Virus record (IMG/VR): IMGVR_UViG_3300043438_001049
Reading direction: 5' to 3' (one strand)
DNA: 57,512 nt
Source of the DNA: an uncultured virus (IMG/VR IMGVR_UViG_3300043438_001049)
Taxonomy: Duplodnaviria > Heunggongvirae > Uroviricota > Caudoviricetes
The position numbers and the translations under genes were made by a program. Position 1 is the first letter of the stretch. Each line of letters opens with the position of its first letter. Positions 3,937-54,874 of this stretch are shown one piece after another. A model generated the notes under the pieces. The model made no database searches. It was not told the DNA's origin and was given only the letters and a program-made list of their open reading frames with translations.

Positions 3937-3981
3937 TTAATGCGTCCAGTTTCGTTTTTCATTACCACACCCATTTCTAAA

Positions 3982-27051: not shown

Positions 27052-27074
27052 ATTGTCACCTCCTAGTGATTTTT

Positions 27075-37114: not shown

Positions 37115-37913
37115 TTTTTATGTAAACCCCGCTGCTTCTTTCAATGTTCATTCTGTCTTTTTCCATTTGCATCCATGTATCTGGTCCATATTTTTTTTGA
37201 TTCTCAATCCAAGCATCTGATGCTTGTTCATCTACATACCAAAAAGATCTAACAAAATACTTTTCTCCTTCAGTAGTTTCTCTTACTCCATGCCAGTACG
37301 GTGGCCTTGACGGAAAGATAATTACATCTCCTTCTTCTGGCTTATAAGTAATTCTTGTAAAAGAATCTTTATTGGAAAATACTTTAAATTCAATTTCTCC
37401 GCCATTATAGTTACTATTTAAATACATATTGCAAGTCAGGGCTTGTTTTTCTCCTGGACCCTCTGCATCTTCTTGTGGATAGTCTGTATGAAAAGACATA
37501 GAATATCTTGAATTGTTGTTTTCAATATGTGGAGAGTCACTTTCAGCCTTTGTAGAATCTTTTGAATTATAGTATTTGCATATGTCAGCCTTTAAAAATA
37601 CTAAGTCCTCTAAGGATAGACCCGTTGTATCAACATAATGCTTTGTTGTTTTATAAAAAACATCAAGTATATCCTTGTGTTGATCTGATACAAGAAAAGA
37701 TTCTATGTATAAAGACCATTCTTGATCTGAAGGAAAAGATTTAGATCGATAAAAATTGTTATTGAAAATTTTATAAATATCCCCAAAGTCATACCACTTT
37801 TCCCAAGTTGCGGAATCTAGAGAATCCAGAAGGCCACGCAAATCTTTAAATGGGTTCTTATATACAAAAATGTTTTGGTCTATTTTATTAAAATTAATAT
37901 TTTTAATTGTCAC
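37101..37913 (-). CDS. 2OG-Fe(II) oxygenase, prolyl-4-hydroxylase-like
   Basis: HTD...MYLNSNYNGGEI...HGV...GEKY. Confidence 0.88.
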   Translation of the reverse strand: MTIKNINFNKIDQNIFVYKNPFKDLRGLLDSLDSATWEKWYDFGDIYKIFNNNFYRSKSFPSDQEWSLYIESFLVSDQHKDILDVFYKTTKHYVDTTGLSLEDLVFLKADICKYYNSKDSTKAESDSPHIENNNSRYSMSFHTDYPQEDAEGPGEKQALTCNMYLNSNYNGGEIEFKVFSNKDSFTRITYKPEEGDVIIFPSRPPYWHGVRETTEGEKYFVRSFWYVDEQASDAWIENQKKYGPDTWMQMEKDRMNIERSSGVYIKNDYH

Positions 37914-38746
37914 ATTGCTACCTTAGATTCATCTATACCCTTTTTAATATTTGGCTTTTTGAAATCGTGATACCTGTCACCTCTATCAATTCTTTCTTTT
38001 TCCATCTTTGCCCATTCTTCAACACCAAATTTTTCTTGATTATCGTGCCACTCTTTTGTTCCAGCAAATGGAATTTGATAAAAGCATCTAATAAGATATT
38101 TGTCAATATTTCTAATTCTTTTAACACCGTGAAGGTATCTTCCCTCTTGAGATAATAAATCTGGATGGCCTGAAGGAAAAACCAAAACATCTCCAGCCTC
38201 TGGTTTATAATCTATAACCGTTTTATTCCCAGTTAAAAATGTTATACCTCCATCGCCATAGTCATCATTCAAATACATTGTGCATGTTAATGCAAATTGT
38301 GCTCCTGGGCAATCTGTTTCAAGGGCTTTATAGTCTGAGTGATGGATCATTTCTAAAGAATCTTTATCGCTATTTGGATCATTGTCATGAGTATATTTTG
38401 AAATTGATGGGCCCATAATAATCCAGTCCTCTCCTATTTTAAGATTATGGGCAGACATAAAATTTTCGGTTGCATAACCAAATGCATGCTGTATTGTTTC
38501 TAATGCCTCAACCTCTTCTAAATATAGTGTGTTATTAATATTAGGATCATCTTCATTTAGAAAATTACCAATGACATATACATAGTGTCCAAACCTACTC
38601 CATGGTTGCCAATCGTCAAATAAAAAACTAGTTCCTTTGTTTAATTCAGACTGCTTAAATAATTCTACAATCCTTTTATTGTTTGGAATTAACCCTTTGT
38701 AAACATAAATGTTTTCATCTAATTGTTTAACTGTAATATTATTCAT
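37910..38746 (-). CDS. 2OG-Fe(II) oxygenase, prolyl-4-hydroxylase-like
   Basis: HSD...MYLNDDYGDGGI...HGV...DKY. Confidence 0.88.
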   Translation of the reverse strand: MNNITVKQLDENIYVYKGLIPNNKRIVELFKQSELNKGTSFLFDDWQPWSRFGHYVYVIGNFLNEDDPNINNTLYLEEVEALETIQHAFGYATENFMSAHNLKIGEDWIIMGPSISKYTHDNDPNSDKDSLEMIHHSDYKALETDCPGAQFALTCTMYLNDDYGDGGITFLTGNKTVIDYKPEAGDVLVFPSGHPDLLSQEGRYLHGVKRIRNIDKYLIRCFYQIPFAGTKEWHDNQEKFGVEEWAKMEKERIDRGDRYHDFKKPNIKKGIDESKVAM

Positions 38747-38778
38747 TTTTTGTCCCCCATTGGATTATCTTTAAACAT
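38743..38778 (-). CDS. putative 11-aa leaderless uORF (MFKDNPMGDKK)
   Basis: ATG 6 nt after TGGTATAAT (38785-38793); its TGA overlaps the ATG of 37910-38746 (ATGA). Confidence 0.4.
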   Translation of the reverse strand: MFKDNPMGDKK

Positions 38779-38785
38779 ATAATTA

Positions 38786-39340
38786 TTATACCACCTTGTC
38801 TCCAAATAAAATTGCAAAACCAAATCTAGGGGTTATGGGTTCAACATAGTGGTAAGTTCCACCAGGTATATACAATAGATCTCCTTCTTCTAATATAACA
38901 TCCATAAAAGGTTGATCATTTTCAACAGAATCATAAAGTCTCCAACGTGTTTTACCTTTACATTGCCAATGTATATTGTTTTCCCTGTCTTCATGTTTGC
39001 CAATAACTTGTCCGCTATCTTCAAGTTTAAGTGAACCAAATAACTGACATGTTACAACCTTTAAATCTTTAAAACAAGGATAAAATCTAGAATGAACTTC
39101 TTTTACAAATAAATTTACTGAACTTATAATCTGTGCCTCATCATAAAATAATGCGTATGGATTAGGCAAAATCTTTTTACCAGTTTTTTTGTGCTCATAA
39201 TCATTTACAAACTGAAGCACTTCATCCCAGGTAACTTCAGGCATTGATATTTTTGGAAAAAGAGTTGCTACTTTATTATTATAAGCATTTAAAAAATTAT
39301 CTTGATCTAAAAAATTAAAATCAAAACTTTTATTTTTCAT
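38786..39340 (-). CDS. JmjC/cupin-type oxygenase
   Basis: HED...WQCKGKTRWRL...LEEGDLLYIPGGTYHYV. Confidence 0.85.
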   Translation of the reverse strand: MKNKSFDFNFLDQDNFLNAYNNKVATLFPKISMPEVTWDEVLQFVNDYEHKKTGKKILPNPYALFYDEAQIISSVNLFVKEVHSRFYPCFKDLKVVTCQLFGSLKLEDSGQVIGKHEDRENNIHWQCKGKTRWRLYDSVENDQPFMDVILEEGDLLYIPGGTYHYVEPITPRFGFAILFGDKVV

Positions 39341-40011
39341 TTTGATTTTCCATGTGAACGAATTGTAAAGAAAAAAGGAATAACATATCTAATTCCTTTT
39401 TTAATTTCTCTTACTCCGTGAATATAATTTAAATCTCCAGGGAAGAAATATGCAGAACCCGCTTTTGGCTTAAACTCAATTCCTTGATTTGGGAAATATA
39501 ACTCTCCACCTTCATAGTCATCATTAAGATAAAAAAGACCTGCAATATCATACCAAGGAAAATCATTTGGCTTTCCTACATTGTCTCCTTCGTGCAACTC
39601 TTTATCTGCATGTGGGTTTTGTAGTTGTCCTGGAAGCCATCTAACAATTGCTGTTGCTGTGGGCCAGGCGTCAATATTAAAAAAATCATTTACTTCTTCT
39701 GTAAGCCTGTCTTGAAGGCTTTTAATTACTGGGTTTATATTTTTATTATTTTGATCTAATCTATCTCCAGTGCAGACTCTGTCATCCCAATATTTAGAAT
39801 CATAAATAACAGTTCCTTCTTCGTTATAGTGAGTTTCAGTAATATCCCAAATTGTAATATTTTTTGCTGATTCTGATAAAAAAGATAGTTCTTCGTCGGT
39901 CATAAAATTGTTTCGTGCTTGGATCATATCTGCACTTTTACCAAAAAATCCAGAGGGAGTTATTGAAAATCTATCTTTATCTTGGTGATTAGAGTACTCT
40001 ATTTTTTTCAT
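39337..40011 (-). CDS. 2OG-Fe(II) oxygenase, prolyl-4-hydroxylase-like
   Basis: HAD...FYLNDDYEGGEL...HGV...GIRY; TGATATACT 6 nt upstream of ATG. Confidence 0.9.
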   Translation of the reverse strand: MKKIEYSNHQDKDRFSITPSGFFGKSADMIQARNNFMTDEELSFLSESAKNITIWDITETHYNEEGTVIYDSKYWDDRVCTGDRLDQNNKNINPVIKSLQDRLTEEVNDFFNIDAWPTATAIVRWLPGQLQNPHADKELHEGDNVGKPNDFPWYDIAGLFYLNDDYEGGELYFPNQGIEFKPKAGSAYFFPGDLNYIHGVREIKKGIRYVIPFFFTIRSHGKSK

Positions 40012-40031
40012 ACAGTTAGTATATCATCTTT

Positions 40032-40766
40032 CTATTCATATTTGCGCTGCTCCCAGATTTCATTTTTATATATTCCGCCATTTGGTTTTCTATAAATTTG
40101 ATAATTTTCTATTGATTGCTTCATTAGTTCAACTGCATTATCTTGTTCTATTATTTCAGAAGTCCAGGATTCTCTTTTAAATGGCAGAAGTTGAGCATAC
40201 GCTGTTCCTTCTGGAATAATTCCCTCAAAACCCTCACAAATAAAAAATGGAAAAGATCCAGGCATATGAACTTTGTCGTTATCCACAATTCCACTAGTTA
40301 GCAAAAATGGTAACTCAAATCTGTTAAATGGCTGAGTATACAATACGCTATATCCTGGAGGAGTTTTTATTTGCCAATCTGGAGTTATTGCAAAATGATT
40401 TTTGTAATACCCGCGGGGGTGTTCAAACTGTGGCATTTCTGATCTTTCTTCAATTAAGTTTTTATATTTTACATTTAAAACTTTATGTTTTAGTCCAGAA
40501 TCAGTCATGTAGAATTCAATATCGCAAGGAAGATTAAGAGAATATCCAGAACCCATAATATCAAAAATTGCAGGACAGGCCTTCCATGTAGGAACTTTTC
40601 CACCATCCTCTCCTATATAAAAAGAATTGTCTGTTGGTAATTTTGCAAACCTATCTGCTTTTCTAAACCATTCAGGAATTGTTCTTATAATTGGAGTTGG
40701 TGCTGACTTGCTTTCTTTTGAAAGCCAAATTTTATTTGCAATAAAAGATATTTTTTCTGTATTCAT
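40032..40766 (-). CDS. hypothetical protein of oxygenase cluster (possible dUTPase-like fold)
   Basis: PEWF...TWKACPAIFD...TPPGYSVLYTQP.N...SGIVDND...IPEGTAYAQLLPF. Confidence 0.6.
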   Translation of the reverse strand: MNTEKISFIANKIWLSKESKSAPTPIIRTIPEWFRKADRFAKLPTDNSFYIGEDGGKVPTWKACPAIFDIMGSGYSLNLPCDIEFYMTDSGLKHKVLNVKYKNLIEERSEMPQFEHPRGYYKNHFAITPDWQIKTPPGYSVLYTQPFNRFELPFLLTSGIVDNDKVHMPGSFPFFICEGFEGIIPEGTAYAQLLPFKRESWTSEIIEQDNAVELMKQSIENYQIYRKPNGGIYKNEIWEQRKYE

Positions 40767-41476
40767 TACTTGTCACTTTGATATTTATTAATTGAAAGTT
40801 TTAAGGATTTTACTTCGTGCTCTCCAAGGCTATTTCCTAAATGGTCAACAGCATCTCTATAAAAGTTTGTCCATTGTCCAGACTGAGTTATTTCTCCAGA
40901 GGCTTTTCCATATTCAGAAAGATTCTTTTCAAAATCTTGATCTTTTACATAGTCGTACAGATTTACTTCTGTTGCTTGGAGTTTTTTTAAACTAATTGGC
41001 ATAATACAAACAATTGGTGTTCCTGCTGGTATTGTTATTACTTCATTTGCCCTTGTTATTTTCCATGCATATGGAAGTGGAGCAAGATGGACAACTGGAC
41101 TAATTACACTTGAGAATCCTTGAACACCATCAATAAATTGATTTGGAACTGGAAGGAGCAGTAGACTAATCTCATCAGTACTTTTAAAATATAAACCACT
41201 ATTAAAACTTATAGTTCCGTTAGCCCTGTTTGCATGAACATACTTTTCTCCAGAAAGAATTTCAAGGTCTTCAGATCTAGAGTTTGGATCTGTTCCTTTC
41301 CAAATAAAAGAAATGTCTTCTGGAAAAGAAAATGTCCATCCTGTTGTGTTTGCCAACGATACTGGGAAGCAATGATAGGCGTGTTTGTCAAAAGTTTCAT
41401 CCATCCAGTTTCTTCTAACTTTTAAAGTATCAAAAGTTACATCAGAATGTGGTGTTTGATAAACATCTATAGACAT
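40766..41476 (-). CDS. DUF6065-like protein
   Basis: RRNWMDET...HAYHCFPVSLANTTGW, PVPN, AWKIT motifs recalled from DUF6065. Confidence 0.6.
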   Translation of the reverse strand: MSIDVYQTPHSDVTFDTLKVRRNWMDETFDKHAYHCFPVSLANTTGWTFSFPEDISFIWKGTDPNSRSEDLEILSGEKYVHANRANGTISFNSGLYFKSTDEISLLLLPVPNQFIDGVQGFSSVISPVVHLAPLPYAWKITRANEVITIPAGTPIVCIMPISLKKLQATEVNLYDYVKDQDFEKNLSEYGKASGEITQSGQWTNFYRDAVDHLGNSLGEHEVKSLKLSINKYQSDK

Positions 41477-41477
41477 G

Positions 41478-42164
41478 TTAGTTTCCTGTTTCTAAAAACA
41501 TCTCTGGTCCATGGAATTTTGCGCTGTAGTCTAGCATTGTTACAATTGAATATTTAGTTCCGCTAGTAACTGGCATTGCTCTATGAGAATACATATATGT
41601 TGATGGGAAAATATACAAATCTCCAGCACGTGGTTTTACTAATAAATCTTGGTGTTGAAAATGTAAACCACCGTCGACGTAGTCGTCATTTGGGTATGCA
41701 ACCAAAGACACTGTACAGTTATAAGAAAATCCATGATCATGATGATATTGGAAATGCTGACCCTCATGGTATCTAATAAAATTCATTGCTTCCCAAAACC
41801 TTAGTTCTGCAATATTAAACATTTTACGATAGTGCTCAACTGCTGGACTTTTTCTATCGTAGCAGTCTTGCCAAAGTTGTTGAAGCGCTAAAGATGCTTC
41901 TCCTGGTCTTTGTGCCATATCTTTCTTTGTAAACTTAAAGTCAACACAATCTCTATATTCTGGCATGCTTTCTTGATAGCCAACAAACGCTTCCATCCAG
42001 TGAAATGGGTTGCTTTGGTCTTCAAGAACAGACTCTAATCTGTTAATAATATCCAGTTCTTTAGGTAAAACATCTCTATAGACAAAAATTCCACTCCCTA
42101 GATCTTCAAAAGACGACCAGGTTTGCTCTATAGGGGTTGTCTCAGTTTGAACATGTTTTTGCAT
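41478..42164 (-). CDS. 2OG-Fe(II) oxygenase, prolyl-4-hydroxylase-like
   Basis: HHD...YPNDDYVDGGL...HRA...GTKY; TGCTATAAT at 42191-42199. Confidence 0.9.
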   Translation of the reverse strand: MQKHVQTETTPIEQTWSSFEDLGSGIFVYRDVLPKELDIINRLESVLEDQSNPFHWMEAFVGYQESMPEYRDCVDFKFTKKDMAQRPGEASLALQQLWQDCYDRKSPAVEHYRKMFNIAELRFWEAMNFIRYHEGQHFQYHHDHGFSYNCTVSLVAYPNDDYVDGGLHFQHQDLLVKPRAGDLYIFPSTYMYSHRAMPVTSGTKYSIVTMLDYSAKFHGPEMFLETGN

Positions 42165-42199
42165 TTTTTCCTGCTTTCTACTATGTATATATTATAGCA

Positions 42200-42904
42200 C
42201 TAGTTATTCTTATGATGTAAATCGTTATAGTCTGTCATAATTACAACAGAATACTTTATACCCTGCAATAATTCACAAGAGGCATGCTCATAAACAAAAT
42301 TTGATGGGAAAAGAACAATGTCTCCAGCCTGGGGCTTAATCTTTAATTCTTGTCTTGGAAACTCTAATTCTCCACCAACATAGTCATCATTAAGATATAG
42401 TATTGCAGATATTGTACATGCATAGAATGGGCCATGGTCACCATGAAGTTTAAAATATTTCCCAGGTAGATACTTAACAAAATTAAAGGCTTCTTTGTAT
42501 TTCATCTGAAGATGCCATAAAGACTCATAATCATTTAGGCAGACATCTAATGCGTCTTCTACCTCTTTGTGTATGTCAAACATGTCTTGATTAAAAGATA
42601 TCCCAGACTTTCCAAGCATATCTCTTTTATATTTTATATCAATGCAGTTCCTAACATAATCTAAATTTTCTACATCATTAACCATTGCTGTAGACCAAGA
42701 AAGGTTACAGTCTGGATCGTTTGCTGAGTTTTCTAGTCTTTTAATTATACTATCACACTGGCTTCTATTTATGGCATTTTTATATACATTAATACCGTAG
42801 CCAATATTTAAAACCTCTATGTTATTTGACATTGATCTAGACTTTAGCCTACTGTCTGCTTTTTCTAATCTTGGTAAATCAAGCCACCCAAAGTTATTTG
42901 TCAT
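42200..42904 (-). CDS. 2OG-Fe(II) oxygenase, prolyl-4-hydroxylase-like
   Basis: HGD...LYLNDDYVGGEL...HAS...GIKY; paralogous to 41478-42164; TGCTATAAT 6 nt upstream of ATG. Confidence 0.9.
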   Translation of the reverse strand: MTNNFGWLDLPRLEKADSRLKSRSMSNNIEVLNIGYGINVYKNAINRSQCDSIIKRLENSANDPDCNLSWSTAMVNDVENLDYVRNCIDIKYKRDMLGKSGISFNQDMFDIHKEVEDALDVCLNDYESLWHLQMKYKEAFNFVKYLPGKYFKLHGDHGPFYACTISAILYLNDDYVGGELEFPRQELKIKPQAGDIVLFPSNFVYEHASCELLQGIKYSVVIMTDYNDLHHKNN

Positions 42905-42948
42905 TCTAATATTATAGCATATCTACATATTTATACAAAATATTAATT

Positions 42949-43626
42949 TTAAATTTGATATATGTAAATTTCTGCAAAATCATAAATTGGATCTTTTTTA
43001 AGCAATTCTTTAAAAATATAATCATTTTCAAAATGAAAAACAAAAAAGGATTTAGATTTTGATAAAATTTCCCATTTATCTAATATTAATTTATTAAAAA
43101 TTTCAGGCAGCAATGGGTAATAAAAATAATAAACACACTTTTCTTCTGAAAAATGATAATCATTTATATCACTATTTATAAAATCAACTTCTTTATCTAT
43201 TTCTATATTAATTGTTTTTAAATTATTTAAAGCAATATTGTTGAATTGATCGTCTATCTCTACACCTACATACTTCTTATACGGTGCATTTGAGATTAAC
43301 TGATGTAAAATTGTTTTTCCCTTACCGCTACCTATATCTAAAAAGGTATACTCCTCAATTCCTTCAATATCTTTCATAAAATTATTCACCATGTCTAAAA
43401 TTTTTAAAGGTGAGTTCTGTAAACCCATTGATCCTGGAAACCTATCATTATTATCAATACTGCCTGGCACATATTCACCAGAACCATCTGAGGCTAAAGG
43501 AGTTGGATGCCAAGTGTCTACATTATATTTTTCATCAAAAAATTTGAATAATGAAGCGTCTTCTCTTCTAATTTTTTTTAATACATCTAAATTCTTTATT
43601 GTACTTTTGTCTACACCTTTATGCAT
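42949..43626 (-). CDS. class I SAM-dependent methyltransferase
   Basis: FLDIGSGKGK motif I, GVEID motif II, YFYYP motif IV-like. Confidence 0.85.
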   Translation of the reverse strand: MHKGVDKSTIKNLDVLKKIRREDASLFKFFDEKYNVDTWHPTPLASDGSGEYVPGSIDNNDRFPGSMGLQNSPLKILDMVNNFMKDIEGIEEYTFLDIGSGKGKTILHQLISNAPYKKYVGVEIDDQFNNIALNNLKTINIEIDKEVDFINSDINDYHFSEEKCVYYFYYPLLPEIFNKLILDKWEILSKSKSFFVFHFENDYIFKELLKKDPIYDFAEIYIYQI

Positions 43627-44206
43627 TTTTTGCTCCTAAATATTTGTTTGGCATGATATCAATTATAGCATGGATTCTGTCATGGTCACTATCGTTTATT
43701 ACTGAGTGTGGAATAATATTATTAATCTCATACCAATTTCCAACCTCAAGATACTTTTTTTCTTCAAATACTTCAAATATGACTTTTGGATTTGTTATTA
43801 GTGGAATATGTATTCTTCTACCGAGTTGTAGCATTACCCCGCCATCAACGTGAGATTTTATTCCAGAGCGCTTATTCATTTGAATTATCTCACTCCTAAT
43901 AACTTTGCCATCGTACAAGTTTTCTAAATATTCATAAATAGCATTAAGGCTTTCATTAGATTGTTTATTTTTAAAATAATTTATATCATAAGATGTATTG
44001 CCTTGTCCAATTTCCCAATGATAAGACATAAACCTTAGTTGAAACATTTTTGTATCTTTGTGCGTTGCCAACTTGTCTTGACGAGAAGTATCCAGTAGCC
44101 ACTCATTTTCAAAAGAGTTAACTTCTTGAATTATTGAAGATAGATCAACTGGTAAAGATCCATATTGATAGTTCCAAGAAGTATTCTTATCTGGTAGTTT
44201 TAACAT
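43619..44206 (-). CDS. aspartyl/asparaginyl beta-hydroxylase-like 2OG oxygenase
   Basis: HVD...RRIHIPLITN...GNWYEINN..PHSVIN...RIHAIID. Confidence 0.85.
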   Translation of the reverse strand: MLKLPDKNTSWNYQYGSLPVDLSSIIQEVNSFENEWLLDTSRQDKLATHKDTKMFQLRFMSYHWEIGQGNTSYDINYFKNKQSNESLNAIYEYLENLYDGKVIRSEIIQMNKRSGIKSHVDGGVMLQLGRRIHIPLITNPKVIFEVFEEKKYLEVGNWYEINNIIPHSVINDSDHDRIHAIIDIMPNKYLGAKNA

Positions 44207-44873
44207 AATCGTAAATTTCCATATCTAAATTGTTTAATTCTTCAATTTTATTTTTCATTGAATCTGATATTTTAATAGTTTGAAAATTTTCATTAATAGC
44301 ATTTTTATTTGAAAAACTATAAAACCCATATGCCTGATAACATAGATCATTTAACCTTGATATAAAAGATGAATGATTGTCTAATGTATCTATTAGAGCC
44401 ATTGAGTCTATAAGGTCTTTTACTTCTTTTATATCTACGCTACCTTCTTCAAGGCACCAACTTTCATTGGCTCTTTGAATTCCGTGGTCTAAAGAATTAT
44501 AAAAATCTTCGTTTAAACTTTTATTTAAACTTCTAGCCTGAAGGTTATGGTGTTTTGAATTTTCCACCCATTTTTCAAGTTGAGCCTCTAAGTGAGCACC
44601 TTTAAAAGATGGATGTAAATAAATAAAGTTGCTTATAAATCTATCTAATGGATTTCTAACCAAGCCTATATTTATTAAGTCGTCTCTATACTTTAATGCA
44701 GTCAGACCAAAGTGCCCTGAAATAAACCGTTTATCAACAAAGGTTTTTGGAAAAACCTCTCCGTGGTTTGTAGCAAAGTATGGAATCTTCCTAATCTTTA
44801 GATCATTAACAATATGAGTCTTTATATATATACCCGAACATCTTGGGATATGTATATGATTTATTGAACTCAT
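44187..44873 (-). CDS. sulfotransferase family protein
   Basis: HIHIPRCSGIYIK 5'-PSB-like motif, SGHF, VRNPLDRFISNFIY 3'-PB motif, NNLDMEIYDY. Confidence 0.78.
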   Translation of the reverse strand: MSSINHIHIPRCSGIYIKTHIVNDLKIRKIPYFATNHGEVFPKTFVDKRFISGHFGLTALKYRDDLINIGLVRNPLDRFISNFIYLHPSFKGAHLEAQLEKWVENSKHHNLQARSLNKSLNEDFYNSLDHGIQRANESWCLEEGSVDIKEVKDLIDSMALIDTLDNHSSFISRLNDLCYQAYGFYSFSNKNAINENFQTIKISDSMKNKIEELNNLDMEIYDYVKTTR

Positions 44874-44874
44874 A

Positions 44875-46239
44875 CTACTGAGAATCTCTGATAGTTAAGC
44901 CTTGGAAGGCACCCTTCTTATTATGAGAGATTAGATCTCCTGCAATAAAGAGTGAATAAGGATTTACAGTGATGTCATAAACATCTGTTGTTTCATCAAT
45001 ATATTCAACAACTTCAACAAGGGTATCAACTGCTTGATTATTGATATCGGATACTAGGTAGTCTCCAACTTTAACGACGCCAGCCTGTACGAATGCATAG
45101 ACTCCATCTCTCTTAACAAGCATCAAGTGCTCCATAGAGAATCGTTTTTCGTTGGTGCTATTGAATGCTACTGTAGTTGCAACATCTCTAGCCTTGATTG
45201 CTCCGATAACTGTTTCAACAACTGATGATCCAGTTAGAGTATCAGATACCCATGTCTCAGCAAAATCAACAGATGAGTTATCTGGTAATTCATTGAAACT
45301 GTAGGATACTAGACTTTGTCCAATAGCCAGGTCTCTTGCTTTAACATATCCACTAGTTGTTCTTACAAGAACATCACCTTGTACGCAGAATACTGGTGGG
45401 AAGAACGGACAGAATACTGGTGGGAAGAACGGACAAAAACGTGGTGGGAAGAACGGACAGAAACGTGGTGGGAAGAACGGACAGAATACTGGTGGGAAGA
45501 ACGGTGGGAAGAATGGGAAGAACGGACAAAAACGTGGTGGGAAGAACGGTGGGAAGAACGGTGGGAAGAATGGGAAGAACGGTGGGAAGAATGGTGGGAA
45601 GAATGGGAAGAACGGTGGGAAAAATGGAGGGAAGAAAGGAGGTGTTGTTGTAACGTTGTTAGAACTATTACCGTATAGTCCATCTCCATTAGCATTTATA
45701 GCAAGAACCTGATAACTCTGTGATGTATCTCCAGTTTCTGCTACAGTTGTTGACAAAACATTTCCTACAACATAAACTGGACCATCAGAAGACTTTACAC
45801 GATATCCAGTAATTGCAGATCCGCCAGTTGCAGGTGCTGTCCAAGATACTGTATCTAAGTTAACGGCTGTAGTTGCTGTTGGAGCATTTGGAGCAGCAGG
45901 AACTGTTGTTGCCAATACTCCTGCTGATGCAGAAGATGCTGCTGATGTTCCCGCAGCATTAGTTCCTGTTACTGTAAATGTGTAAGAAGTATTTGATGCA
46001 AGACCATCAACGGTAATTGGAGAGGCAGAAGAACTTCCTGTAAACCCTCCTGGAGAAGATGTTACTGTAAATGATGTTGCTGCTGGAGAATCTCCTGGTA
46101 ATGAAAAACTAACACTTATGGCACCATTGTTAAACGCACGTGAAGTTCCTACGTTTGTGCCTACAACAGATATGGGTGGTTTTGGCTCTAATGAGTCATT
46201 CTGTTGTAAAGATTTAGATCCTAGTTCTTTTTTTGCCAT
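44875..46239 (-). CDS. FN3-domain protein with PPFF-repeat tract and C-terminal Hint domain
   Basis: two FN3-like modules (GLASNTSYTFTVTGTNAAG; VSWTAPATGGSAITGY...YQVLAINANG); 86-aa Pro/Phe/Cys tract; CVQGDVLV...SMEH...VYDITV...FIAGDLISHN. Confidence 0.88.
   Translation of the reverse strand: MAKKELGSKSLQQNDSLEPKPPISVVGTNVGTSRAFNNGAISVSFSLPGDSPAATSFTVTSSPGGFTGSSSASPITVDGLASNTSYTFTVTGTNAAGTSAASSASAGVLATTVPAAPNAPTATTAVNLDTVSWTAPATGGSAITGYRVKSSDGPVYVVGNVLSTTVAETGDTSQSYQVLAINANGDGLYGNSSNNVTTTPPFFPPFFPPFFPFFPPFFPPFFPFFPPFFPPFFPPRFCPFFPFFPPFFPPVFCPFFPPRFCPFFPPRFCPFFPPVFCPFFPPVFCVQGDVLVRTTSGYVKARDLAIGQSLVSYSFNELPDNSSVDFAETWVSDTLTGSSVVETVIGAIKARDVATTVAFNSTNEKRFSMEHLMLVKRDGVYAFVQAGVVKVGDYLVSDINNQAVDTLVEVVEYIDETTDVYDITVNPYSLFIAGDLISHNKKGAFQGLTIRDSQ
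44920..45387 (-). other. Hint (intein-like/BIL-type) domain, copy 1, 156 aa
   Basis: block A Cys1 (45385-45387), block B SxxH, block F VYDITV, block G SHN (44920-44928); +1 residue is Lys; no endonuclease. Confidence 0.85.
45385..45642 (-). repeat. coding tandem repeat of 9/12/24-bp units (PFF, PPFF, PFFPP[V/R]FC)
   Basis: + strand units gaagaatgg, ggtgggaagaac, ggtgggaagaacggacagaatact. Confidence 0.95.
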
Positions 46240-46269: not shown

Positions 46270-48966
46270 TTATGCTGTGAGATCTCCAACAACAACCCAA
46301 GAGTCTGTTGCTCTCTTCATTAATGTTGCTGATGACCACTGTGTACGAAGTTTTAATCCTGGAGTTGCATTAACTGTTACTCCTACTGCTCCAGCAATTG
46401 TTACTTGTCCCGCACCAGTTTGAAGGATATCAATTGATGATCCTATTGGAAAGGCTGTTGTTGCATTTGTTGGAATTGTAACTGTTACTCCAGTAGCAGA
46501 AGAAACTTCAATTAATGAATCTCTTTCATTAAGTGCTGCAAGTGTGTAGCCTGCTGTTTTTTGTATAATTGTTGTACGTGATGGAACGCCTTCTTTTGTT
46601 TGTGTTCCATCTGTGAATTGTACTCCGCCTGCTGGAACAGTTATTCCTACGCCAGTAAATATTGGGGAAGCAAGTGGTGCATATGTATTTGCTGCTGTTG
46701 ATGAAGCAAGTTTTAGGTCTAAAGCAGTTTGTGTAGCAGTTGAAACTGGCTTGTTAGCGTCGGAAGTATTTTCTACGTTTCCAAGACCAACCATTGTTGC
46801 TGAAATACCTGAAACTGTTCCACTAAATGCTGGGGAACTAAGTGGTGCATACCCTGAAATGCTTGCGCCTGTAGGAATTGTTACTTCTCCAGTAAATGTT
46901 GGTGAGGCTAGTGGTGCATACCCTGAAATGCTTGCGCCTGCAGGAATTGTTACTGATCCAGTAAATGTTGGTGCATGCAATGGTGCCTTATAACCAAGTA
47001 CTGTGTGTGTAGCAGTTGAAACTGGCTTATCTGCATCTGCTGTATTATCAACAGATCCTAGGCCTACCATTGACTTTGTTACACCAGACACAGTTCCTGT
47101 GAATGTTGGTGAAGCAATTGGTGCCTTAGCAGCAAGGTCAGATGTTAAACCTGAAATCTTAGACTGTGCAATTTCTGCTGATGTGTTAACATCTGCGTCT
47201 ACGATTGTTCCGTCAGCGATCATTGCTGAAGTAACTCCACCAGTTGCAACAGAGATTGTTCCTGGGGTTGCTTCTGTCAAACCAGAGCCTACAACAACTG
47301 CCTTAGCAGCATTAAACTCTGTGTAGGAAATGTTATCTGTTCCAATTACAATTGGATTTGCTGTTGAGTTGTTAATATATCCAACAGATCCGTTTGTTGT
47401 TCCTCTTTGAACAAATGTAAAGTCACCTGACTTCATTTCTCCAGTTGGGTTGTTATCTGCGTCTGTTGAGCGGGTAAGCACCCAAGGATCAGAGACTGAG
47501 CCCAATGTTGTCAATACATAGATACCGTTTTGCTTAGCGTCTGTCTGGTTCTTTACAAGAACTCTTTCGTTAAGGACAACGCTCTCACTATCAATTGTAG
47601 TCATAGCGCGGTTTGTGTCGGCTGTAAGAGTTGCCCCTACCCCAGATGTTCCGTTGCTATAAATAGTTGCTAAGTTTACAGTTGTTGCAGCGTGTACTGC
47701 TTCGTGGAAGTTAATTCCAGCAGCCACATTGTCAACATATAGTTTATTTGCTGCATGTAGGTCTGATGTTGGTGCACCTGATAGTGTAAGTGCTCCTGTC
47801 ATTGTTCCGCCAGCAAGGTTTAACTTAGCATCTAGTGCTGCTTGTGTAGCAGTTGAAACTGGCTTTGCTGAGTCAGCAGTATTATCTACGCTGCCAAGAC
47901 CTACCATAGACTTTGTTACACCTGCAACTGTTCCTGTAAAGGTTGGGTCAGCAAGAGGTGCTTTTAGATCAAGTGCTGCTTGTGCAGCAGTTGAAACTGG
48001 CTTGTTAACATCAGATGTGTTGTCTACGTTTCCAAGATCAACCATTGCCTTTGTAATACCAGAAACTGTACCTGTAAATGTAGGTGAAGCAAGTGGTGAC
48101 TTTAGATCAAGTGCTGTTTGAGTATCACTAGATATTGGCTTATTTGCATCAGAAGTATTATCTGCATCTGCAAGTCCAACCATATCTTTTGTAACTGCAC
48201 CAGTTGCAATTTTAGCATTTGTAACTGCTTGATCTGCAATTTTTGCAGTAGTTACTGCTTCTGCTCCAATTTTTCCTGCTGTAACTGCTGTATCGGCAAT
48301 GTCTGCTGTCACAATAGTTCCTTCAGCAATCATTCCACTTATAACTGTTCCTGATGGAAGATTTACTGTACCAATAAATGTTGGTGAATCAAGGTTTGCC
48401 TTAAAATCAAGGGCTGTTTGAGTTGCTGTTGAAACTGGCTTATTAGCATCTGTTGTATTGTTAACTGATCCTAAGCCAACATCTGACGCTGTTATTCCTA
48501 AAGGAGTTACAAAAGTTTTGTTAGTTAATGTTTGTGTTCCTGATAGTGTTGCAAGAACTAGCGTGTCTGTAATACCATGAACATTTGATGTATCTGTATT
48601 ATGGTTTGAAAGAATTGTTGTTGTTACTAAATCTGCGGTATTTGTAATACCATGGATATCAGTTGTGTCTGTAGCATGGTTTGTCAAGTTTGTTGCTATT
48701 GTTGTTAAGAATGCTGGGTTGTCTCCCATGGCTGCTGCTAATTCATTAAGTGTATCAAGAGTTGCTGGTAAATCAATTCCAGAAAGACCACCCAAGATTG
48801 ACTCTGCATCTGTAAAGTACTTGAGGGATGCCCATGCAGAAGAACCGTTACCTACTTTAAATTTAACTGTGTCGGTTTCAAAACCAATTTCTCCTGCTGC
48901 CAAAGTTGGGTTTGCAGCCGTCCATTGCGCTGCTGTTCCTCTGCGCTGTTGCATTCTTGTTGCCAT
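46270..48966 (-). CDS. tail fibre-like repeat protein
   Basis: N-terminal MQQRRGTAAQW...LAAGEIGFETDT module; LDTLNELAAA motif; six VGLG.VDNT.D..KPVSTA.Q.ALD.K repeats. Confidence 0.8.
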   Translation of the reverse strand: MATRMQQRRGTAAQWTAANPTLAAGEIGFETDTVKFKVGNGSSAWASLKYFTDAESILGGLSGIDLPATLDTLNELAAAMGDNPAFLTTIATNLTNHATDTTDIHGITNTADLVTTTILSNHNTDTSNVHGITDTLVLATLSGTQTLTNKTFVTPLGITASDVGLGSVNNTTDANKPVSTATQTALDFKANLDSPTFIGTVNLPSGTVISGMIAEGTIVTADIADTAVTAGKIGAEAVTTAKIADQAVTNAKIATGAVTKDMVGLADADNTSDANKPISSDTQTALDLKSPLASPTFTGTVSGITKAMVDLGNVDNTSDVNKPVSTAAQAALDLKAPLADPTFTGTVAGVTKSMVGLGSVDNTADSAKPVSTATQAALDAKLNLAGGTMTGALTLSGAPTSDLHAANKLYVDNVAAGINFHEAVHAATTVNLATIYSNGTSGVGATLTADTNRAMTTIDSESVVLNERVLVKNQTDAKQNGIYVLTTLGSVSDPWVLTRSTDADNNPTGEMKSGDFTFVQRGTTNGSVGYINNSTANPIVIGTDNISYTEFNAAKAVVVGSGLTEATPGTISVATGGVTSAMIADGTIVDADVNTSAEIAQSKISGLTSDLAAKAPIASPTFTGTVSGVTKSMVGLGSVDNTADADKPVSTATHTVLGYKAPLHAPTFTGSVTIPAGASISGYAPLASPTFTGEVTIPTGASISGYAPLSSPAFSGTVSGISATMVGLGNVENTSDANKPVSTATQTALDLKLASSTAANTYAPLASPIFTGVGITVPAGGVQFTDGTQTKEGVPSRTTIIQKTAGYTLAALNERDSLIEVSSATGVTVTIPTNATTAFPIGSSIDILQTGAGQVTIAGAVGVTVNATPGLKLRTQWSSATLMKRATDSWVVVGDLTA

Positions 48967-53360: not shown

Positions 53361-53924
53361 ATGATTAAATTTATCGAAAGAAACAAAGAGATCATTAGCA
53401 CACTCAGTATCGTAGCACTAGTAACAGTTATGTCTAATTCTGCTAATGCTATTTCAGATTTTGATACTAAGAATAACCTTAGCCTGAAACAGGCTCAGAC
53501 ATCGGAAACCACCTCGAAAGAGGTTTTTTTGGTTTCTAAAGCAAAAAAGTTAGAGAGTTTTGAAAATAAGGTTTCTCTAACAGATTTAGAACTAAAGGAA
53601 CTGCTTTCCCTAGTTGGCTTCAAGGGTAAAGACCTTGTTGTGGCTTGGGCAGTAGCAAAGAAAGAATCTAATGGACGACCATTGGCCTTTAATGGCAATC
53701 ACAAGACTGGGGATTCGTCTTATGGTATGTTCCAAATTAATATGATTGATACACTTGGTCCTGATCGTAGGGACAAGTTTGATCTTGACTCTAACGCTGA
53801 ATTATTTAATCCCGTCAAGAATGCTGAAATTGCATACTACATGACAAAGGGTGGGGACGACTGGTCTTCTTGGAAAGGCATCACTCCAAAGACTAAGGAA
53901 TGGATGGCTAAGTTTCCTCGCTAA
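53361..53924 (+). CDS. secreted lytic transglycosylase (SLT/lysozyme-like); start reassigned to ATG 53361
   Basis: AAGGAGG SD; N-terminal hydrophobic helix ending SNSANA; catalytic KESNG, YGMFQIN, NPVKNA, WSSW. Confidence 0.82.
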   Translation: MIKFIERNKEIISTLSIVALVTVMSNSANAISDFDTKNNLSLKQAQTSETTSKEVFLVSKAKKLESFENKVSLTDLELKELLSLVGFKGKDLVVAWAVAKKESNGRPLAFNGNHKTGDSSYGMFQINMIDTLGPDRRDKFDLDSNAELFNPVKNAEIAYYMTKGGDDWSSWKGITPKTKEWMAKFPR

Positions 53925-54874
53925 TTCCTTCTTGGTGGCATGCCAAGTGCCCTAGGCTCAACTACAACATGTGAACTGTAGTTTGGAATAAAGTCTGTGT
54001 ATTTTGTGTCTATACCAGACTCTTTAAGAAAATTGTAAACTTTTTCTTTTGGAATTTCTAATTGACCAGACATTAGCATAGACAGTCTATTAGTTGATTC
54101 TTCAACATGGCTCCAGTAGTGTTCTTTTCTGCCGTCTGCCCAAGGCCTAAGCGTTTCTCTTGTTACAGATCCATTTGCCTGTCCATGCGACTGATTGTGA
54201 AAAACATCCCTTGTGCCAATAGAGTAAATTTTCCAATCTTTTGCATAAGTTCTTAAAGATAAAGCAAACTCTTCAGTATTGAATGATTCTTTACCGCTAA
54301 TACCAACTTCATCAATCCATTGCTTGGGTGCAAAAAGGTAACAACATGTAGCCCAATACGAACGAACTATTTCCTCTATTTCTAAAACCCTGTATCCTGG
54401 AAACTGAAATCCTGGAACTAAATTATTAAATAAAAATCCATACAGTGATACTTTACAGTCTGTAACAAAATTAATTGACCCGTCTGACATTATTTTATAC
54501 TCTGCTGGGGCATATGCAATAATAAATTTTTCATTATTAATATTTAATTTTTCATATCTTTCAACAGCAAACCTATCCCATTCTGGTGCTGCATAGGTGT
54601 GTGAATCAAACTGTATAAAATAGTTATAATCTACATTAACTTGAGTTGCCAAGTTTCTAGCCCAACAGACACCACCCCTATACTCTGAAAGATCAAAGTG
54701 CCTATATAATAACTGTTCTTTTGGTATAAAAGATAAATCATATTTAGTATTATCTTCTGAAACTATAGAAAAATACAGATCCTCTTTATTTTTTGCCTGA
54801 TGCCACAAAGAAAACATTGTAGAATAAAACTCTGGGTCACAATAATTGACAACACTAACTAATATTTTTTTCAT
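53921..54874 (-). CDS. GT60/'GlcNAc'-family glycosyltransferase (Skp1-hydroxyproline GlcNAc-transferase-like)
   Basis: ILVSVVNYCDPE, GVCWARN, YFIQFDSH...WD, EEFALSLR motifs match the GT60 pattern including the DSH signature. Confidence 0.78.
   Translation of the reverse strand: MKKILVSVVNYCDPEFYSTMFSLWHQAKNKEDLYFSIVSEDNTKYDLSFIPKEQLLYRHFDLSEYRGGVCWARNLATQVNVDYNYFIQFDSHTYAAPEWDRFAVERYEKLNINNEKFIIAYAPAEYKIMSDGSINFVTDCKVSLYGFLFNNLVPGFQFPGYRVLEIEEIVRSYWATCCYLFAPKQWIDEVGISGKESFNTEEFALSLRTYAKDWKIYSIGTRDVFHNQSHGQANGSVTRETLRPWADGRKEHYWSHVEESTNRLSMLMSGQLEIPKEKVYNFLKESGIDTKYTDFIPNYSSHVVVEPRALGMPPRRN

What the first reader, a model, noticed from the sequence alone, without database searches (positions are those of the whole stretch)
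45385..45642. 86-aa tract made almost only of Pro, Phe and Cys, whose last Cys is the Hint catalytic Cys1
Seen: (PPFF/PFF)n grades into PFFPP[V/R]FC units with six Cys in total, and the last unit's Cys starts the Hint domain (VF|CVQGD). The upstream units therefore repeat the N-terminal cleavage junction. Known: Pro-Pro-Phe-Phe is a core motif of the cyclic peptides antamanide and cyclolinopeptide A, and Hint Cys1 forms a thioester by N-S acyl shift. Inference: an upstream Cys 8 residues away could attack that thioester and form a thiolactone macrocycle or cross-link. Alternatively the tract is a self-assembling hydrophobic polyproline rod or anchor.
Basis: partly seen in the sequence, partly recalled or inferred. 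Interest (0 to 1): 0.8.

Follow-up and report, generated by a model that had tools for sequence, protein, structure and literature searches.

The report
Pro/Phe/Cys repeat before phage Hint cap
A lake-phage tail-fibre-region protein carries a real 86-residue proline/phenylalanine/cysteine repeat that runs straight into a self-cleaving (Hint) end domain, but relatives show that the cysteine units exist without any Hint domain, so they are probably not a peptide-cyclising device.

Summary
Residues 200-285 of a 454-aa ORF (window 44875..46239, minus strand) are F38 P36 C6 R3 V3. The sixth Cys (C285) is position 1 of a Hint domain.

The thiolactone reading is not supported:
- Of 101 Hint-bearing relatives, 98 have no Cys upstream of the nucleophile.
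- The Cys units (x-F-C-P-F-F) sit in the query's nearest FN3 clade, whose other members have no Hint.
- A second gene in the same window has DNA-identical PPVFCPFF units, but a 15-residue spacer separates them from its Hint Cys1.

My reading has three parts:
- The tract is a family-wide Pro/aromatic stalk of a fibre-module accessory protein from an uncultured lake phage. The phage is probably an actinophage.
- The Hint is a BIL/Hedgehog-type removable C-terminal cap. It likely cuts at F284|C285 and leaves the same architecture as the Hint-less relatives.
- The junction look-alikes come from an in-register fusion within the repeat. The upstream Cys more plausibly form disulfides.

A possible link to the adjacent prolyl-hydroxylase-like gene battery rests on position only. 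I found no published description. This scan has noted nearly the same sequence on other DNA (e1-6115734) and reached the same conclusion.

The parts
44875..46239 (-). Whole gene, 454 aa: N-terminal conserved peptide, two FN3 domains, Pro/Phe(/Cys) tract, Hint domain and a 14-aa tail.
   Evidence: ORF and translation. 1873 homologs at E<=1e-3 among 8000 scored candidates.
45661..46182 (-). Two tandem fibronectin type III domains (about residues 20-193).
   Evidence: Pfam fn3 E 9.5e-10, 2 stretches. AF2 pLDDT >90. Foldseek matches tandem FN3 structures at E 2e-10.
45541..45642 (-). Cys-free part of the tract, residues 200-233: PPFF and PFF units only.
   Evidence: TRF period 33, 95% matches.
45388..45540 (-). 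Cys-bearing part of the tract, residues 234-284. It holds the PP[V/R]FC units with Cys 238, 253, 261, 269 and 277, joined by PFF/PPFF, and the PPVF start of the sixth unit, whose Cys is C285. The DNA unit is CCA CCA GTA/CGT TTC TGT CCG TTC TTC.
   Evidence: The same 24-nt unit occurs in the second gene. One unit is R in the window and L001 but V in L002, L003 and L009.
45385..45387 (-). Codon of Cys285, the Hint position 1 nucleophile. The predicted scissile bond is F284|C285.
   Evidence: Structure alignment: model residue 9 matches intein residue 1 and Hedgehog Cys258. This column is C in 96 and S in 5 of 101 relatives.
44920..45387 (-). Hint (Hedgehog/intein) domain, residues 285-440.
   Evidence: Pfam Intein_splicing E 2.1e-5, below the gathering score. 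Profile search of the PDB finds the bacterial intein-like domain 2lwy at E 6.8e-8. VIA Z 17.1 for BIL2 6tmm, 16.5 for Hedgehog 1at0, 16.4 for 2lwy, rmsd about 2 A over 130-141 residues.
45127..45138 (-). Block-B-like motif S368-M-E-H371, the equivalent of intein TxxH.
   Evidence: Alignment columns: S88/T13, then H26/Q60/E15 of 101. The His is present in the query.
44920..44925 (-). Terminal His439-Asn440 of the Hint domain.
   Evidence: Aligns with the terminal Asn of inteins. HN is present in 37 of 101 relatives.
44875..44919 (-). 14-residue tail KKGAFQGLTIRDSQ plus the stop codon. The +1 residue is Lys, so no splicing nucleophile follows the Hint domain.
   Evidence: Among HN-bearing relatives, 21 end one residue after HN.
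56142..57512 (-). Second gene carrying the same tract-plus-Hint cassette. It is 5'-open at the window end, and the window holds 456 aa of it. Its N-terminal part is unrelated: about 56-aa Cys-containing repeats and a WGPWGAC motif.
   Evidence: The near-identical record G001 holds a 573-aa form. A 916-aa form fused to a fibre-like N-terminus exists (P0218).
56700..56828 (-). Tract of the second gene: PFF(PPFF)3, then 3 x PPVFCPFF, then PPVF. The spacer TPTPTEPTPVAPIDG follows before Cys1.
56187..56654 (-). Hint domain of the second gene. Across the Hint domain plus tail it is 86% identical in DNA to the first gene, and about 88% identical in protein across tract plus Hint.
46270..48966 (-). 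Context: upstream 898-aa fibre-like protein with an Mtd_N N-terminal domain.
   Evidence: Pfam Mtd_N E 1.1e-14. A fibre homolog lies upstream in 56 of 56 testable related loci.
36344..44873 (-). Context only; any functional link is hypothetical. Downstream lie a sulfotransferase, an Asp/Asn-hydroxylase-like gene, a methyltransferase, six 2OG-FeII_Oxy_3 genes, a JmjC gene, a DUF6065 gene and one unknown gene.
   Evidence: Pfam. The best solved relatives are B. anthracis prolyl 4-hydroxylase and collagen lysyl hydroxylases, at weak E-values of 2e-3 to 2e-5. A 2OG homolog lies within 3.5 kb downstream in 64 of 64 testable related loci.

Best explanation
The tract is the Pro/aromatic low-complexity stalk of a tail-fibre-module accessory protein from an uncultured lake siphovirus. 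Its portal is closest to Streptomyces phages.

Shown:
- The tract is translated in frame between two FN3 domains and a Hint domain.
- Nearly the whole family has such a tract.
- The tract is built from short DNA units that vary in number and type.
- C285 is Hint position 1, and the query has the full set Cys1, SxxH, HN.
- The Hint domain is facultative in the family.
- Cys-bearing units occur without a Hint domain.

Inferred:
1. The Hint domain is a BIL/Hedgehog-type self-removing C-terminal cap. It makes a thioester at F284-C285 by N-S acyl shift. The thioester is resolved mainly by hydrolysis. This releases a mature 284-aa protein that ends in the tract, which is the architecture the Hint-less relatives encode directly.
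2. The junction look-alikes arose because a Cys-bearing repeat unit was fused in register to Cys1. The likely route is recombination through the shared repeat with the second tract-Hint gene of the same genome. They are not a functional reiteration of the cleavage site.
3. The five upstream Cys act as disulfide staples between tract strands or to partner proteins once the virion reaches oxic water. The Cys-rich tails that end many Hint-less relatives would play the same role.
For: Anatomy.

Hint fold and register: profile search finds BIL 2lwy at E 6.8e-8. Foldseek finds BIL2 at 5.6e-8. VIA gives Z 16-17, with C285 on residue 1 and N440 on the terminal Asn.

The nucleophile column is C in 96 and S in 5 of 101 relatives.

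The tract is family-wide. My window criterion finds it in 112 of 121 listed proteins.

Codon use is deviant across the family. The tracts have TTC 2024 to TTT 216 and 24% CCG. The FN3 parts of the same genes have TTT 238 to TTC 38 and 1.6% CCG.

The Hint is facultative:
- 101 of 121 listed proteins have it.
- Only 11 of 52 distinct complete proteins in 80 viral loci have it.
- Starred branches of a quick FN3 tree force at least 12 changes of state.

Cys occurs without Hint:
- 98 of 101 Hint-bearers have no upstream Cys.
- 26 of 41 Hint-less proteins have 2 or more Cys in the tract or tail. These include FC-unit tracts and tails such as CSGCVRNYCWQACPSCCTSCGC.
- The query sits in an SH-aLRT 95 clade of 11 tree rows (the query type fills two of them, L001 and L002) whose other nine members lack Hint. 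Its sister is L010, which has FC units.

The cassette is shared. The second gene has an identical 24-nt unit, while the adjacent Hint differs at 14% of nucleotides.

Other virion-type ORFs of the window have 0 Cys: fibre, tape measure, portal, and 25909..27078.

A cultured-phage precedent for a fibrous repeat followed by a C-terminal Hint exists: Dickeya phage AD1 gp108, annotated as a virion structural protein, with collagen-like GXY repeats followed by SG|CIVFG...LAHN.
Against: - There is no biochemical or proteomic evidence. Cleavage, its products and the protein's place in the virion are all inferred.
- The block-B His is replaced by Gln or Glu in 75 of 101 relatives. Many family members may be slow or inactive, so the Hint could be a permanent domain.
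- The disulfide idea is weak. Five Cys is an odd number, assembly happens in a reducing cytoplasm, and most Hint-bearing relatives manage with no Cys at all.
- The tract has no confident predicted structure: pLDDT 39-52 over residues 211-280.
- The recombination scenario rests on a quick, midpoint-rooted tree and on unit identity that codon constraint might also produce.
- All comparison loci are related phages, so synteny is not independent evidence.
Confidence: 0.6

Rival explanations
1. After the N-S acyl shift at F284-C285, the thiol of C277 (or another upstream Cys) attacks the thioester. This gives an 8-residue thiolactone macrocycle or an intramolecular cross-link. The repeated junction units exist for this purpose.
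For: The chemistry is feasible: transthioesterification to a nearby thiol. C277 lies exactly 8 residues upstream, and the units are regularly spaced. The query's Hint has a full catalytic set.
Against: 98 of 101 Hint-bearing relatives have no upstream Cys. The same Cys units are most numerous in the nearest relatives that have no Hint. In the paralog of the same phage, a 15-residue spacer places the nearest Cys 23 residues from Cys1. The 916-aa fused relative has the same Hint and a Cys-free tract.
Confidence: 0.05
2. The Hint thioester is not simply hydrolysed. It is passed to another nucleophile, such as a Lys or N-terminal amine of a virion protein or a group on the host surface. The tract end then becomes covalently anchored. 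This would resemble Hedgehog cholesterol transfer or the BIL-flanked ubiquitin-like proteins of Tetrahymena.
For: The top structural matches are the Tetrahymena BUBL BIL2 domain and Hedgehog Hint. The nucleophile is conserved even where the C-terminal HN is lost in 64 of 101 relatives, so N-terminal chemistry is the conserved activity. Hint-less relatives often carry another covalent-chemistry end, a Cys cluster. The function of BUBL conjugation is recalled from memory and comes from no call.
Against: No acceptor is identified. No sterol-recognition-like region follows the Hint, only 14 residues. 15 of 41 Hint-less relatives end without any Cys or reactive module, so covalent anchoring cannot be essential to the family.
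Confidence: 0.12
3. The tract is the substrate of the phage's own prolyl-hydroxylase-like 2OG oxygenases, and possibly of the GlcNAc transferase. It would become a hydroxyproline-rich, stiffer rod. This is compatible with the best explanation and adds to it.
For: Seven 2OG-FeII_Oxy_3 genes, a JmjC gene and an Asp/Asn-hydroxylase-like gene are in the window. Their best solved relatives are a bacterial prolyl 4-hydroxylase and collagen lysyl hydroxylases. The two tract proteins are the only ones of 50 ORFs with 6 or more Pro in any 20 residues. A 2OG homolog lies within 3.5 kb downstream in 64 of 64 testable loci. A viral P4H that acts on viral Pro-rich repeats is known from PBCV-1 (passage read in PMC3634087). 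[quoted passage not shown]
Against: The link is positional only, and all loci are related phages. The E-values to P4H structures are weak (2e-3 to 9e-5). One earlier scan note (e1-5769059, unchecked here) says the enzyme block sits elsewhere in some sister phages. 2OG oxygenases are common in aquatic phages and have other possible substrates.
Confidence: 0.3
4. The Hint domain is catalytically retired. It stays on the protein as a permanent C-terminal globular end, for example a binding or capping domain. The tract is then an internal linker.
For: The block-B His is Gln or Glu in 75 of 101 relatives, and HN is absent in 64 of 101. Contextual support, not evidence of retirement: the PHROG hit for this region is annotated as a virion structural protein.
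Against: The position-1 nucleophile is kept in all 101 relatives, as C in 96 and S in 5. The query itself keeps Cys1, SxxH and HN. Hint-less relatives end at the tract, which is what cleavage would produce.
Confidence: 0.15

Closest known systems
Bacterial intein-like (BIL) domains, type A (for example Clostridium thermocellum BIL, PDB 2lwy; Amitai 2003 and Dassa 2004 as cited in PMC7765530, passages read)
   Same: Both have the Hint fold, a Cys at position 1, a C-terminal His-Asn without a +1 Cys/Ser/Thr, and a location in variable, non-conserved surface-type proteins. Autocleavage rather than splicing is expected. It is the best sequence-profile hit (E 6.8e-8) and ties for the top structural match (Z 16.4).
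   Different: Here the domain is a terminal cap on phage fibre-module proteins, directly behind a Pro/Phe repeat. Many relatives lack HN or the block-B His. I had no BIL-type-specific model to test type A against type B.
Hedgehog C-terminal autoprocessing (Hog/Hint) domain (PDB 1at0)
   Same: Both share the architecture of an N-terminal cargo followed by a C-terminal Hint that cleaves at x|C through a thioester. Z 16.5, with Hedgehog Cys258 aligned to C285.
   Different: No sterol-recognition region follows the Hint, only a 14-aa tail. Residue -1 is Phe, not Gly. Nothing indicates a lipid acceptor.
Dickeya phage vB_DsoM_AD1 gp108 and its Erwinia/Yersinia jumbo-phage homologs (phrog_38766, virion structural protein)
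   Same: Both are phage structural proteins with a fibrous Pro-rich repeat followed by a C-terminal Hint that ends in HN plus a short tail. Identity to residues 291-440 is 26-30% in 33 records.
   Different: Their repeat is collagen-like (Gly-X-Y), not Pro/Phe. The junction is G|C. The hosts are Enterobacterales. As far as I saw, no processing data exist for them either.
Intramolecular chaperone auto-cleaving domains of phage tail spikes and fibres (peptidase S74 type; recalled, with the MyRF/ICA abstract seen in the listing)
   Same: Both are self-removing C-terminal modules on phage fibre proteins. This is the likely functional analogy.
   Different: The fold and chemistry are unrelated (Ser-Lys dyad versus Hint thioester). 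Pfam gives no S74 hit.
Cnidarian minicollagens: polyproline stretches capped by Cys-rich domains that polymerise by disulfide reshuffling (start of the abstract of PMC4863159 seen in the listing)
   Same: Both have a Pro-rich rod with clustered Cys at its end. This resembles the Hint-less relatives with Cys-rich tails and the query's Cys-studded tract.
   Different: There is no sequence relation and no collagen triplets. Disulfides are not shown here. This is an analogy only.
PBCV-1 prolyl 4-hydroxylase and its viral Pro-rich repeat substrates (PMC3634087, passage read)
   Same: Both are viruses that encode P4H-like enzymes alongside their own Pro-rich repeat proteins.
   Different: The host kingdom and the repeat ((PAPK)n versus PPFF) differ. 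Here the enzyme-substrate link is untested.

Membership tests
Hint (Hedgehog/intein) superfamily | Hint fold | tested here: met
   The AF2 Hint-only model has pLDDT 80.5. VIA gives Z 13-17 to 50 listed Hint structures at rmsd about 2 A. Foldseek E 5.6e-8. Pfam Intein_splicing scores only 24.8 bits against a cut-off of 35.8.
Hint (Hedgehog/intein) superfamily | Cys/Ser/Thr nucleophile at position 1 | tested here: met
   C285 aligns with residue 1. The column is C in 96 and S in 5 of 101 relatives.
Hint (Hedgehog/intein) superfamily | Block B (T/S)xxH | tested here: met
   The query has S368-M-E-H371. In the family the His column is H26, Q60, E15 of 101.
Hint (Hedgehog/intein) superfamily | Autoprocessing activity | not testable with these tools
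   This needs protein expression and MS.
Intein (protein-splicing element) | C-extein that begins with Cys/Ser/Thr (+1 nucleophile) | tested here: not met
   The +1 residue is Lys441, and only 14 residues follow. 21 relatives end one residue after HN, and 64 of 101 lack HN.
Intein (protein-splicing element) | Insertion inside a conserved host protein whose intein-less alleles align across the site | tested here: not met
   Hint-less relatives stop at or just after the tract. No C-extein exists.
BIL domain, type A | Terminal His-Asn, no +1 nucleophile, and a location in a variable non-conserved protein | tested here: met
   H439-N440-K441. The N-terminal partners vary: FN3, Cys repeats, or a fibre fusion.
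BIL domain, type A | Type-specific sequence motifs that separate A-type from B-type BILs and from inteins | tested here: inconclusive
   No BIL-specific model is in the libraries. 2lwy is the best profile hit, but inteins follow within about 1.5 orders of magnitude. BIL, Hedgehog and intein structures are tied within 1 Z unit.
Hedgehog Hog domain | Sterol-recognition region after the Hint module | tested here: not met
   The protein ends 14 residues after N440.
Multi-core RiPP or cyclic-peptide precursor (orbitide/amatoxin-like PPFF peptides) | Repeated core peptides flanked by recognition or cleavage sites, plus a dedicated protease or macrocyclase nearby | tested here: not met
   The units abut one another without spacers. 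Among the 40 of 50 window ORFs scanned with Pfam, the only peptidase is the prohead protease S78. The tract lies inside a folded FN3 virion-type protein.
Phage fibre intramolecular chaperone (peptidase S74) | S74 fold with a Ser-Lys dyad | tested here: not met
   Pfam gives no hit. The C-terminal domain is a Hint fold.

The most novel reading that the evidence does not exclude
The Pro/Phe tract and whatever ends it form one covalent-materials module. The tract's prolines are hydroxylated by the phage's battery of collagen-type hydroxylase-like enzymes, giving a stiff Hyp-Phe-Phe aromatic-zipper rod. The C-terminal end supplies the cross-linking chemistry. That end is a Hint thioester in most relatives, a Cys cluster in others, and both in this phage. 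It staples rods to each other, to the fibre, or to the host envelope. This would be a phage-made, enzymatically tailored, covalently cross-linked fibre tip with no described counterpart.
Probability: 0.12. Interest if true: 0.8.

Novelty: new variant of a known kind. Interest (0 to 1): 0.5.

Why it matters
Hint domains are known as inteins, Hedgehog processors and bacterial BIL domains. Here a Hint domain appears as an interchangeable end cap on phage fibre-module proteins, in a family of more than a thousand metagenomic members. It always sits behind an aromatic polyproline repeat whose structure and role are unknown. My full-text searches found no description of this.

The cap would give a clean, testable case of Hint-mediated maturation in virions. 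The tract is a natural polymer of the Pro-Phe-Phe motif that materials chemists study as a self-assembling peptide. It is also a concrete candidate substrate for the orphan 2OG oxygenases that are abundant in aquatic phages.

For the specific claim under review, the value is negative. The attractive idea of a built-in thiolactone cyclisation device can be set aside on comparative grounds.

Tried and rejected
- The exhaustive representative search with the whole protein was swamped by multi-FN3 giants. It added only P0218.
- The fold search with the full-length model returned only tandem FN3 structures. The Hint was therefore folded alone.
- Megablast of 12 kb around the gene against cultured phages found only a 60-nt fibre match.
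- Complex prediction with three copies of residues 190-284 gave no answer: score 0.00, controls not run. This is not evidence either way.
- Contigs of four lake-water runs were laid on 45100..45950. The flanks match with 0 differences, but no contig bridges the tract. Depth inside the tract is inflated by look-alike repeats from other sequences. Length polymorphism in the population therefore could not be read.
- The careful tree search did not finish in 300 s. The quick IQ-TREE result was used.
- One literature search failed on term syntax and was not repeated.
- The place look-up of the scan's notes returned nothing for this genome.
- I considered and rejected a multi-core RiPP precursor (see the membership test).
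- I rejected a gene on the plus strand. ORFs 45316..45678 and 45357..45653 are mirror artefacts of the repeat, and all neighbouring genes lie on the minus strand.
- I rejected a true intein, because no C-extein exists.
- My regex classifier mislabelled L024 as 'plain', although it has 10 Cys in its tract. I read that clade from the sequences, not the labels.
Full report
OBSERVATION

The minus-strand ORF 44875..46239 encodes 454 aa. Residues 200-285 map exactly to 45385..45642. They consist of F38, P36, C6, R3 and V3.

The first 34 residues are PPFF and PFF units. Six PP[V/R]FC units follow, with Cys at 238, 253, 261, 269, 277 and 285. Tandem Repeats Finder reports nested periods of 12 to 69 nt, with scores up to 251.

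These five residue types make up 18% of residues in 12 other long ORFs of the window. A run of 86 of them cannot be chance (about 1e-64). It is a coding tandem repeat. The plus-strand ORFs over the same bases are mirror artefacts.

ANATOMY

- Pfam finds two FN3 stretches (E 9.5e-10). It gives a sub-threshold Intein_splicing hit at residues 301-440 (E 2.1e-5, 24.8 bits against a 35.8 cut-off).
- PHROGs places residues 287-441 in phrog_38766, a virion structural protein family.
- AlphaFold with a 50-sequence alignment gives pLDDT above 90 for both FN3 domains and for the C-terminal domain. The tract gets pLDDT 39-52 and no secondary structure.
- A profile of ten C-terminal domains hits the Clostridium bacterial intein-like domain 2lwy (E 6.8e-8) and then mini-inteins.
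- A Hint-only model (pLDDT 80.5) matches Tetrahymena BIL2, Hedgehog Hint, 2lwy and many inteins at VIA Z 13-17 and rmsd about 2 A. These rows are tied.
- The register is unambiguous. Model residue 9 (= C285) aligns with residue 1 of inteins and with Hedgehog Cys258. Model residue 164 (= N440) aligns with the terminal Asn.
- The query also has a block-B SMEH motif (S368..H371). It ends ...LISHN|KKGAFQGLTIRDSQ.

It is not an intein: the +1 residue is Lys and there is no C-extein.

THE FAMILY

The word-indexed search found 1873 relatives at E<=1e-3 among 8000 scored candidates. I examined the 120 listed proteins plus the query.

- By my window criterion, 112 of 121 have a Pro/Phe(/Tyr) tract. Detected stretches run from 12 to 127 residues.
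- 101 of 121 have the Hint region.
- Among those 101, position 1 is C in 96 and S in 5.
- The block-B His column is H in 26, Q in 60 and E in 15.
- A terminal HN is present in 37, and 21 of those end one residue later.
- Residue -1 is F in 38, R in 23, Y in 10, K in 8, G in 7, L in 6 and W in 4.
- 98 have no Cys between the FN3 domains and the nucleophile. The query has 5, and two others have 1 and 2.

Among Hint-bearers they do.

CYS UNITS WITHOUT HINT

Eighty related viral-contig loci yield 52 distinct complete proteins. Only 11 of them have a Hint. Of the 41 Hint-less proteins, 26 carry two or more Cys in the tract or tail.

Some have x-F-C-P-F-F units like the query: L010, L012, L024, L038, L060 and L064, with 6-12 Cys. 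Others end in compact Cys-rich tails such as CPECTKGCPC or CSGCVRNYCWQACPSCCTSCGC. Fifteen have plain ends.

I built a quick maximum-likelihood tree of the FN3 region (166 rows, midpoint-rooted; the careful search did not finish). The query lies in an SH-aLRT 95 clade of 11 rows, two of which are the query type itself (L001 and L002). The other nine members are all Hint-less. Its sister is L010, which has FC units. Starred branches force at least 12 changes of the Hint label across the tree. The C-terminal end of this family is therefore modular and often swapped.

A SECOND CASSETTE IN THE SAME WINDOW

ORF 56142..57512 (minus strand, 5'-open) has an unrelated N-terminal part: about 56-aa Cys-containing repeats and a WGPWGAC motif. 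The same kind of tract follows: PFF(PPFF)3, three PPVFCPFF units, then PPVF. A spacer TPTPTEPTPVAPIDG comes next, and then CVQGD..., a Hint 86% identical in DNA (about 88% in protein across tract plus Hint) to the first one.

The 24-nt unit CCA CCA GTA TTC TGT CCG TTC TTC is identical in both genes, although the adjacent Hint domains differ at 14% of bases.

In the near-identical record G001 this gene is 573 aa and follows a 252-aa fibre-like ORF. In another phage the two are fused into a 916-aa protein. That protein's tract is short and Cys-free, and its junction is PVA|CVQGD.

Three conclusions follow:
1. Tract plus Hint is a portable C-terminal cassette of fibre-type proteins.
2. The spacing between the last upstream Cys and Cys1 is not conserved, even within one genome.
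3. The query's seamless PPVF|C junction is best read as an in-register fusion of a Cys-bearing unit to Cys1. The likely route is recombination through the shared repeat.

Its causal reading is probably reversed.

SELECTION AND DYNAMICS OF THE DNA

Across distinct loci, the tracts use TTC 2024 times against TTT 216, and CCG for 24% of Pro codons. The FN3 parts of the same genes use TTT 238 against TTC 38, and CCG for 1.6%. In the window itself the tract has TTC 35 to TTT 3, against TTT 338 to TTC 77 in other ORFs.

This family-wide bias shows constraint at the nucleotide or translation level. I infer that it avoids long T runs in a slippage-prone repeat.

Contigs from near-identical phages differ by one R-to-V unit. 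Several assemblies break inside the tract. Lake-water runs hold the flanks without differences but cannot bridge the tract.

CONTEXT

- The portal is 47.7% identical to those of 130-kb Streptomyces siphoviruses.
- The window has 36% G+C.
- The holders are lake-water metagenomes.
- The gene follows an 898-aa fibre-like gene with an Mtd_N domain.
- Downstream lie a sulfotransferase, an Asp/Asn-hydroxylase-like gene, a methyltransferase, six 2OG-FeII_Oxy_3 genes, a JmjC gene, DUF6065 and an unknown gene.
- A seventh 2OG gene and a PF11397 GlcNAc transferase lie beside the second cassette.
- The best solved relatives of three oxygenases are a bacterial prolyl 4-hydroxylase and collagen lysyl hydroxylases, at weak E-values.
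- The two cassette proteins are the only ones of 50 ORFs with 6 or more Pro in 20 residues. They are also Cys-rich, whereas the fibre, tape measure, portal and other large virion-type ORFs have no Cys at all.
- In related loci a fibre homolog lies upstream in 56 of 56 testable cases. A 2OG homolog lies within 3.5 kb downstream in 64 of 64. These loci are kin, so this is shared ancestry and not independent support.

MECHANISM

Most likely (0.6), the Hint is a BIL/Hedgehog-type removable cap. An N-S acyl shift at F284-C285 is followed by hydrolysis. The mature 284-aa product ends in the tract, which matches what Hint-less relatives encode directly.

The upstream Cys more plausibly serve as disulfide staples after release into oxic water, by analogy with the Cys-rich tails of relatives. 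This sub-claim is weak.

Rivals:
- Thioester transfer to another nucleophile (0.12).
- A retired, permanent Hint (0.15).
- Hydroxylation of the tract by the neighbouring enzymes, a compatible add-on (0.3).

All cleavage chemistry is inferred from family knowledge. Nothing here measures it.

COMPARISON AND NOVELTY

The closest known relatives are:
- Type-A BIL domains (HN end, no +1 nucleophile, variable host proteins; passages of PMC7765530).
- The Hedgehog architecture, but without a sterol-recognition region.
- Jumbo-phage virion proteins such as Dickeya AD1 gp108, which pairs collagen-like repeats with a C-terminal Hint.

Three full-text searches found no description of Hint-capped phage fibre proteins or of Pro/Phe tracts in phages. 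bioRxiv supplements and non-open journals were not visible.

After I had reached these conclusions, I found notes of this scan on other DNA that describe the same family. One of them (e1-6115734) covers a nearly identical sequence and gives the same verdict. These are AI notes and not independent evidence.

VERDICT

- The cyclisation reading is not supported.
- The underlying module is a real, undescribed variant of Hint autoprocessing. It is attached to an unusual aromatic polyproline repeat.

Noticed in passing
window 56142..57512 (-): A second, unrelated protein ends in the same Pro/Phe/Cys tract and a near-identical Hint domain. Its N-terminal part has about 56-aa repeats (…TTWYISGCVGGTT…SSSGYPSVTC…) and a thrombospondin-like WGPWGAC motif. 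It runs off the window end.
   Followed up: partly
window 36344..44873, 53921..54874 and 55428..56009 (-): The window is unusually dense in protein-modification-type genes. It holds seven 2OG-FeII_Oxy_3 genes, a JmjC gene, an Asp/Asn beta-hydroxylase-like gene, a sulfotransferase, a methyltransferase, DUF6065 and a PF11397 GlcNAc transferase. I recall PF11397 as the Skp1 hydroxyproline GlcNAc-transferase family. A second weak sulfotransferase hit lies at 3304..3936.
   Followed up: partly
loci L014, L015, L018, L026, L029, L031, L034, L044-L047, L054, L059 (3' ends of the FN3-tract genes): Many Hint-less relatives end in short, very Cys-rich tails of 3-10 Cys in the last 30 residues, for example CSGCVRNYCWQACPSCCTSCGC and NCNYTCPNGCAGCGCYCMGRTCYC. 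These may be disulfide knots or metal-binding sites. I found no family assignment for them.
   Followed up: no
P0218 (916 aa) versus L081 1498..3219 and 3238..3996: In one relative, a 252-aa fibre-like ORF and the downstream tract-Hint protein are fused into a single protein. This suggests that the tract-Hint proteins are distal parts of a two-piece fibre.
   Followed up: partly
window 45385..45642 in lake-water runs X1, X2, X4, X14: Contig depth inside the tract is 10 to 100 times that of the flanks, and all contigs break there. Pro/Phe-coding repeats of this type seem abundant in those metagenomes. They come from many other sequences.
   Followed up: no
window 12126..20993 (-): This is a 2955-aa tape-measure-like protein (PhageMin_Tail, E 1.5e-24) with no Cys. 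It implies a very long tail.
   Followed up: no
window 46270..48966 (-): The fibre-like protein has an Mtd_N N-terminal domain and many copies of a roughly 40-aa repeat (…NTSDANKPVSTATQTALDLKAPLASPTFTGTV…). A 60-nt stretch matches an Acinetobacter phage tail-fibre gene at 87%.
   Followed up: no
window 57206..57512: the genome search reports that only places 1-57205 of the window lie on the held record G000 (59887 bases). The last 307 bases are said to be N or to lie off that contig, yet they read as normal coding sequence of the second cassette gene.
   Followed up: no
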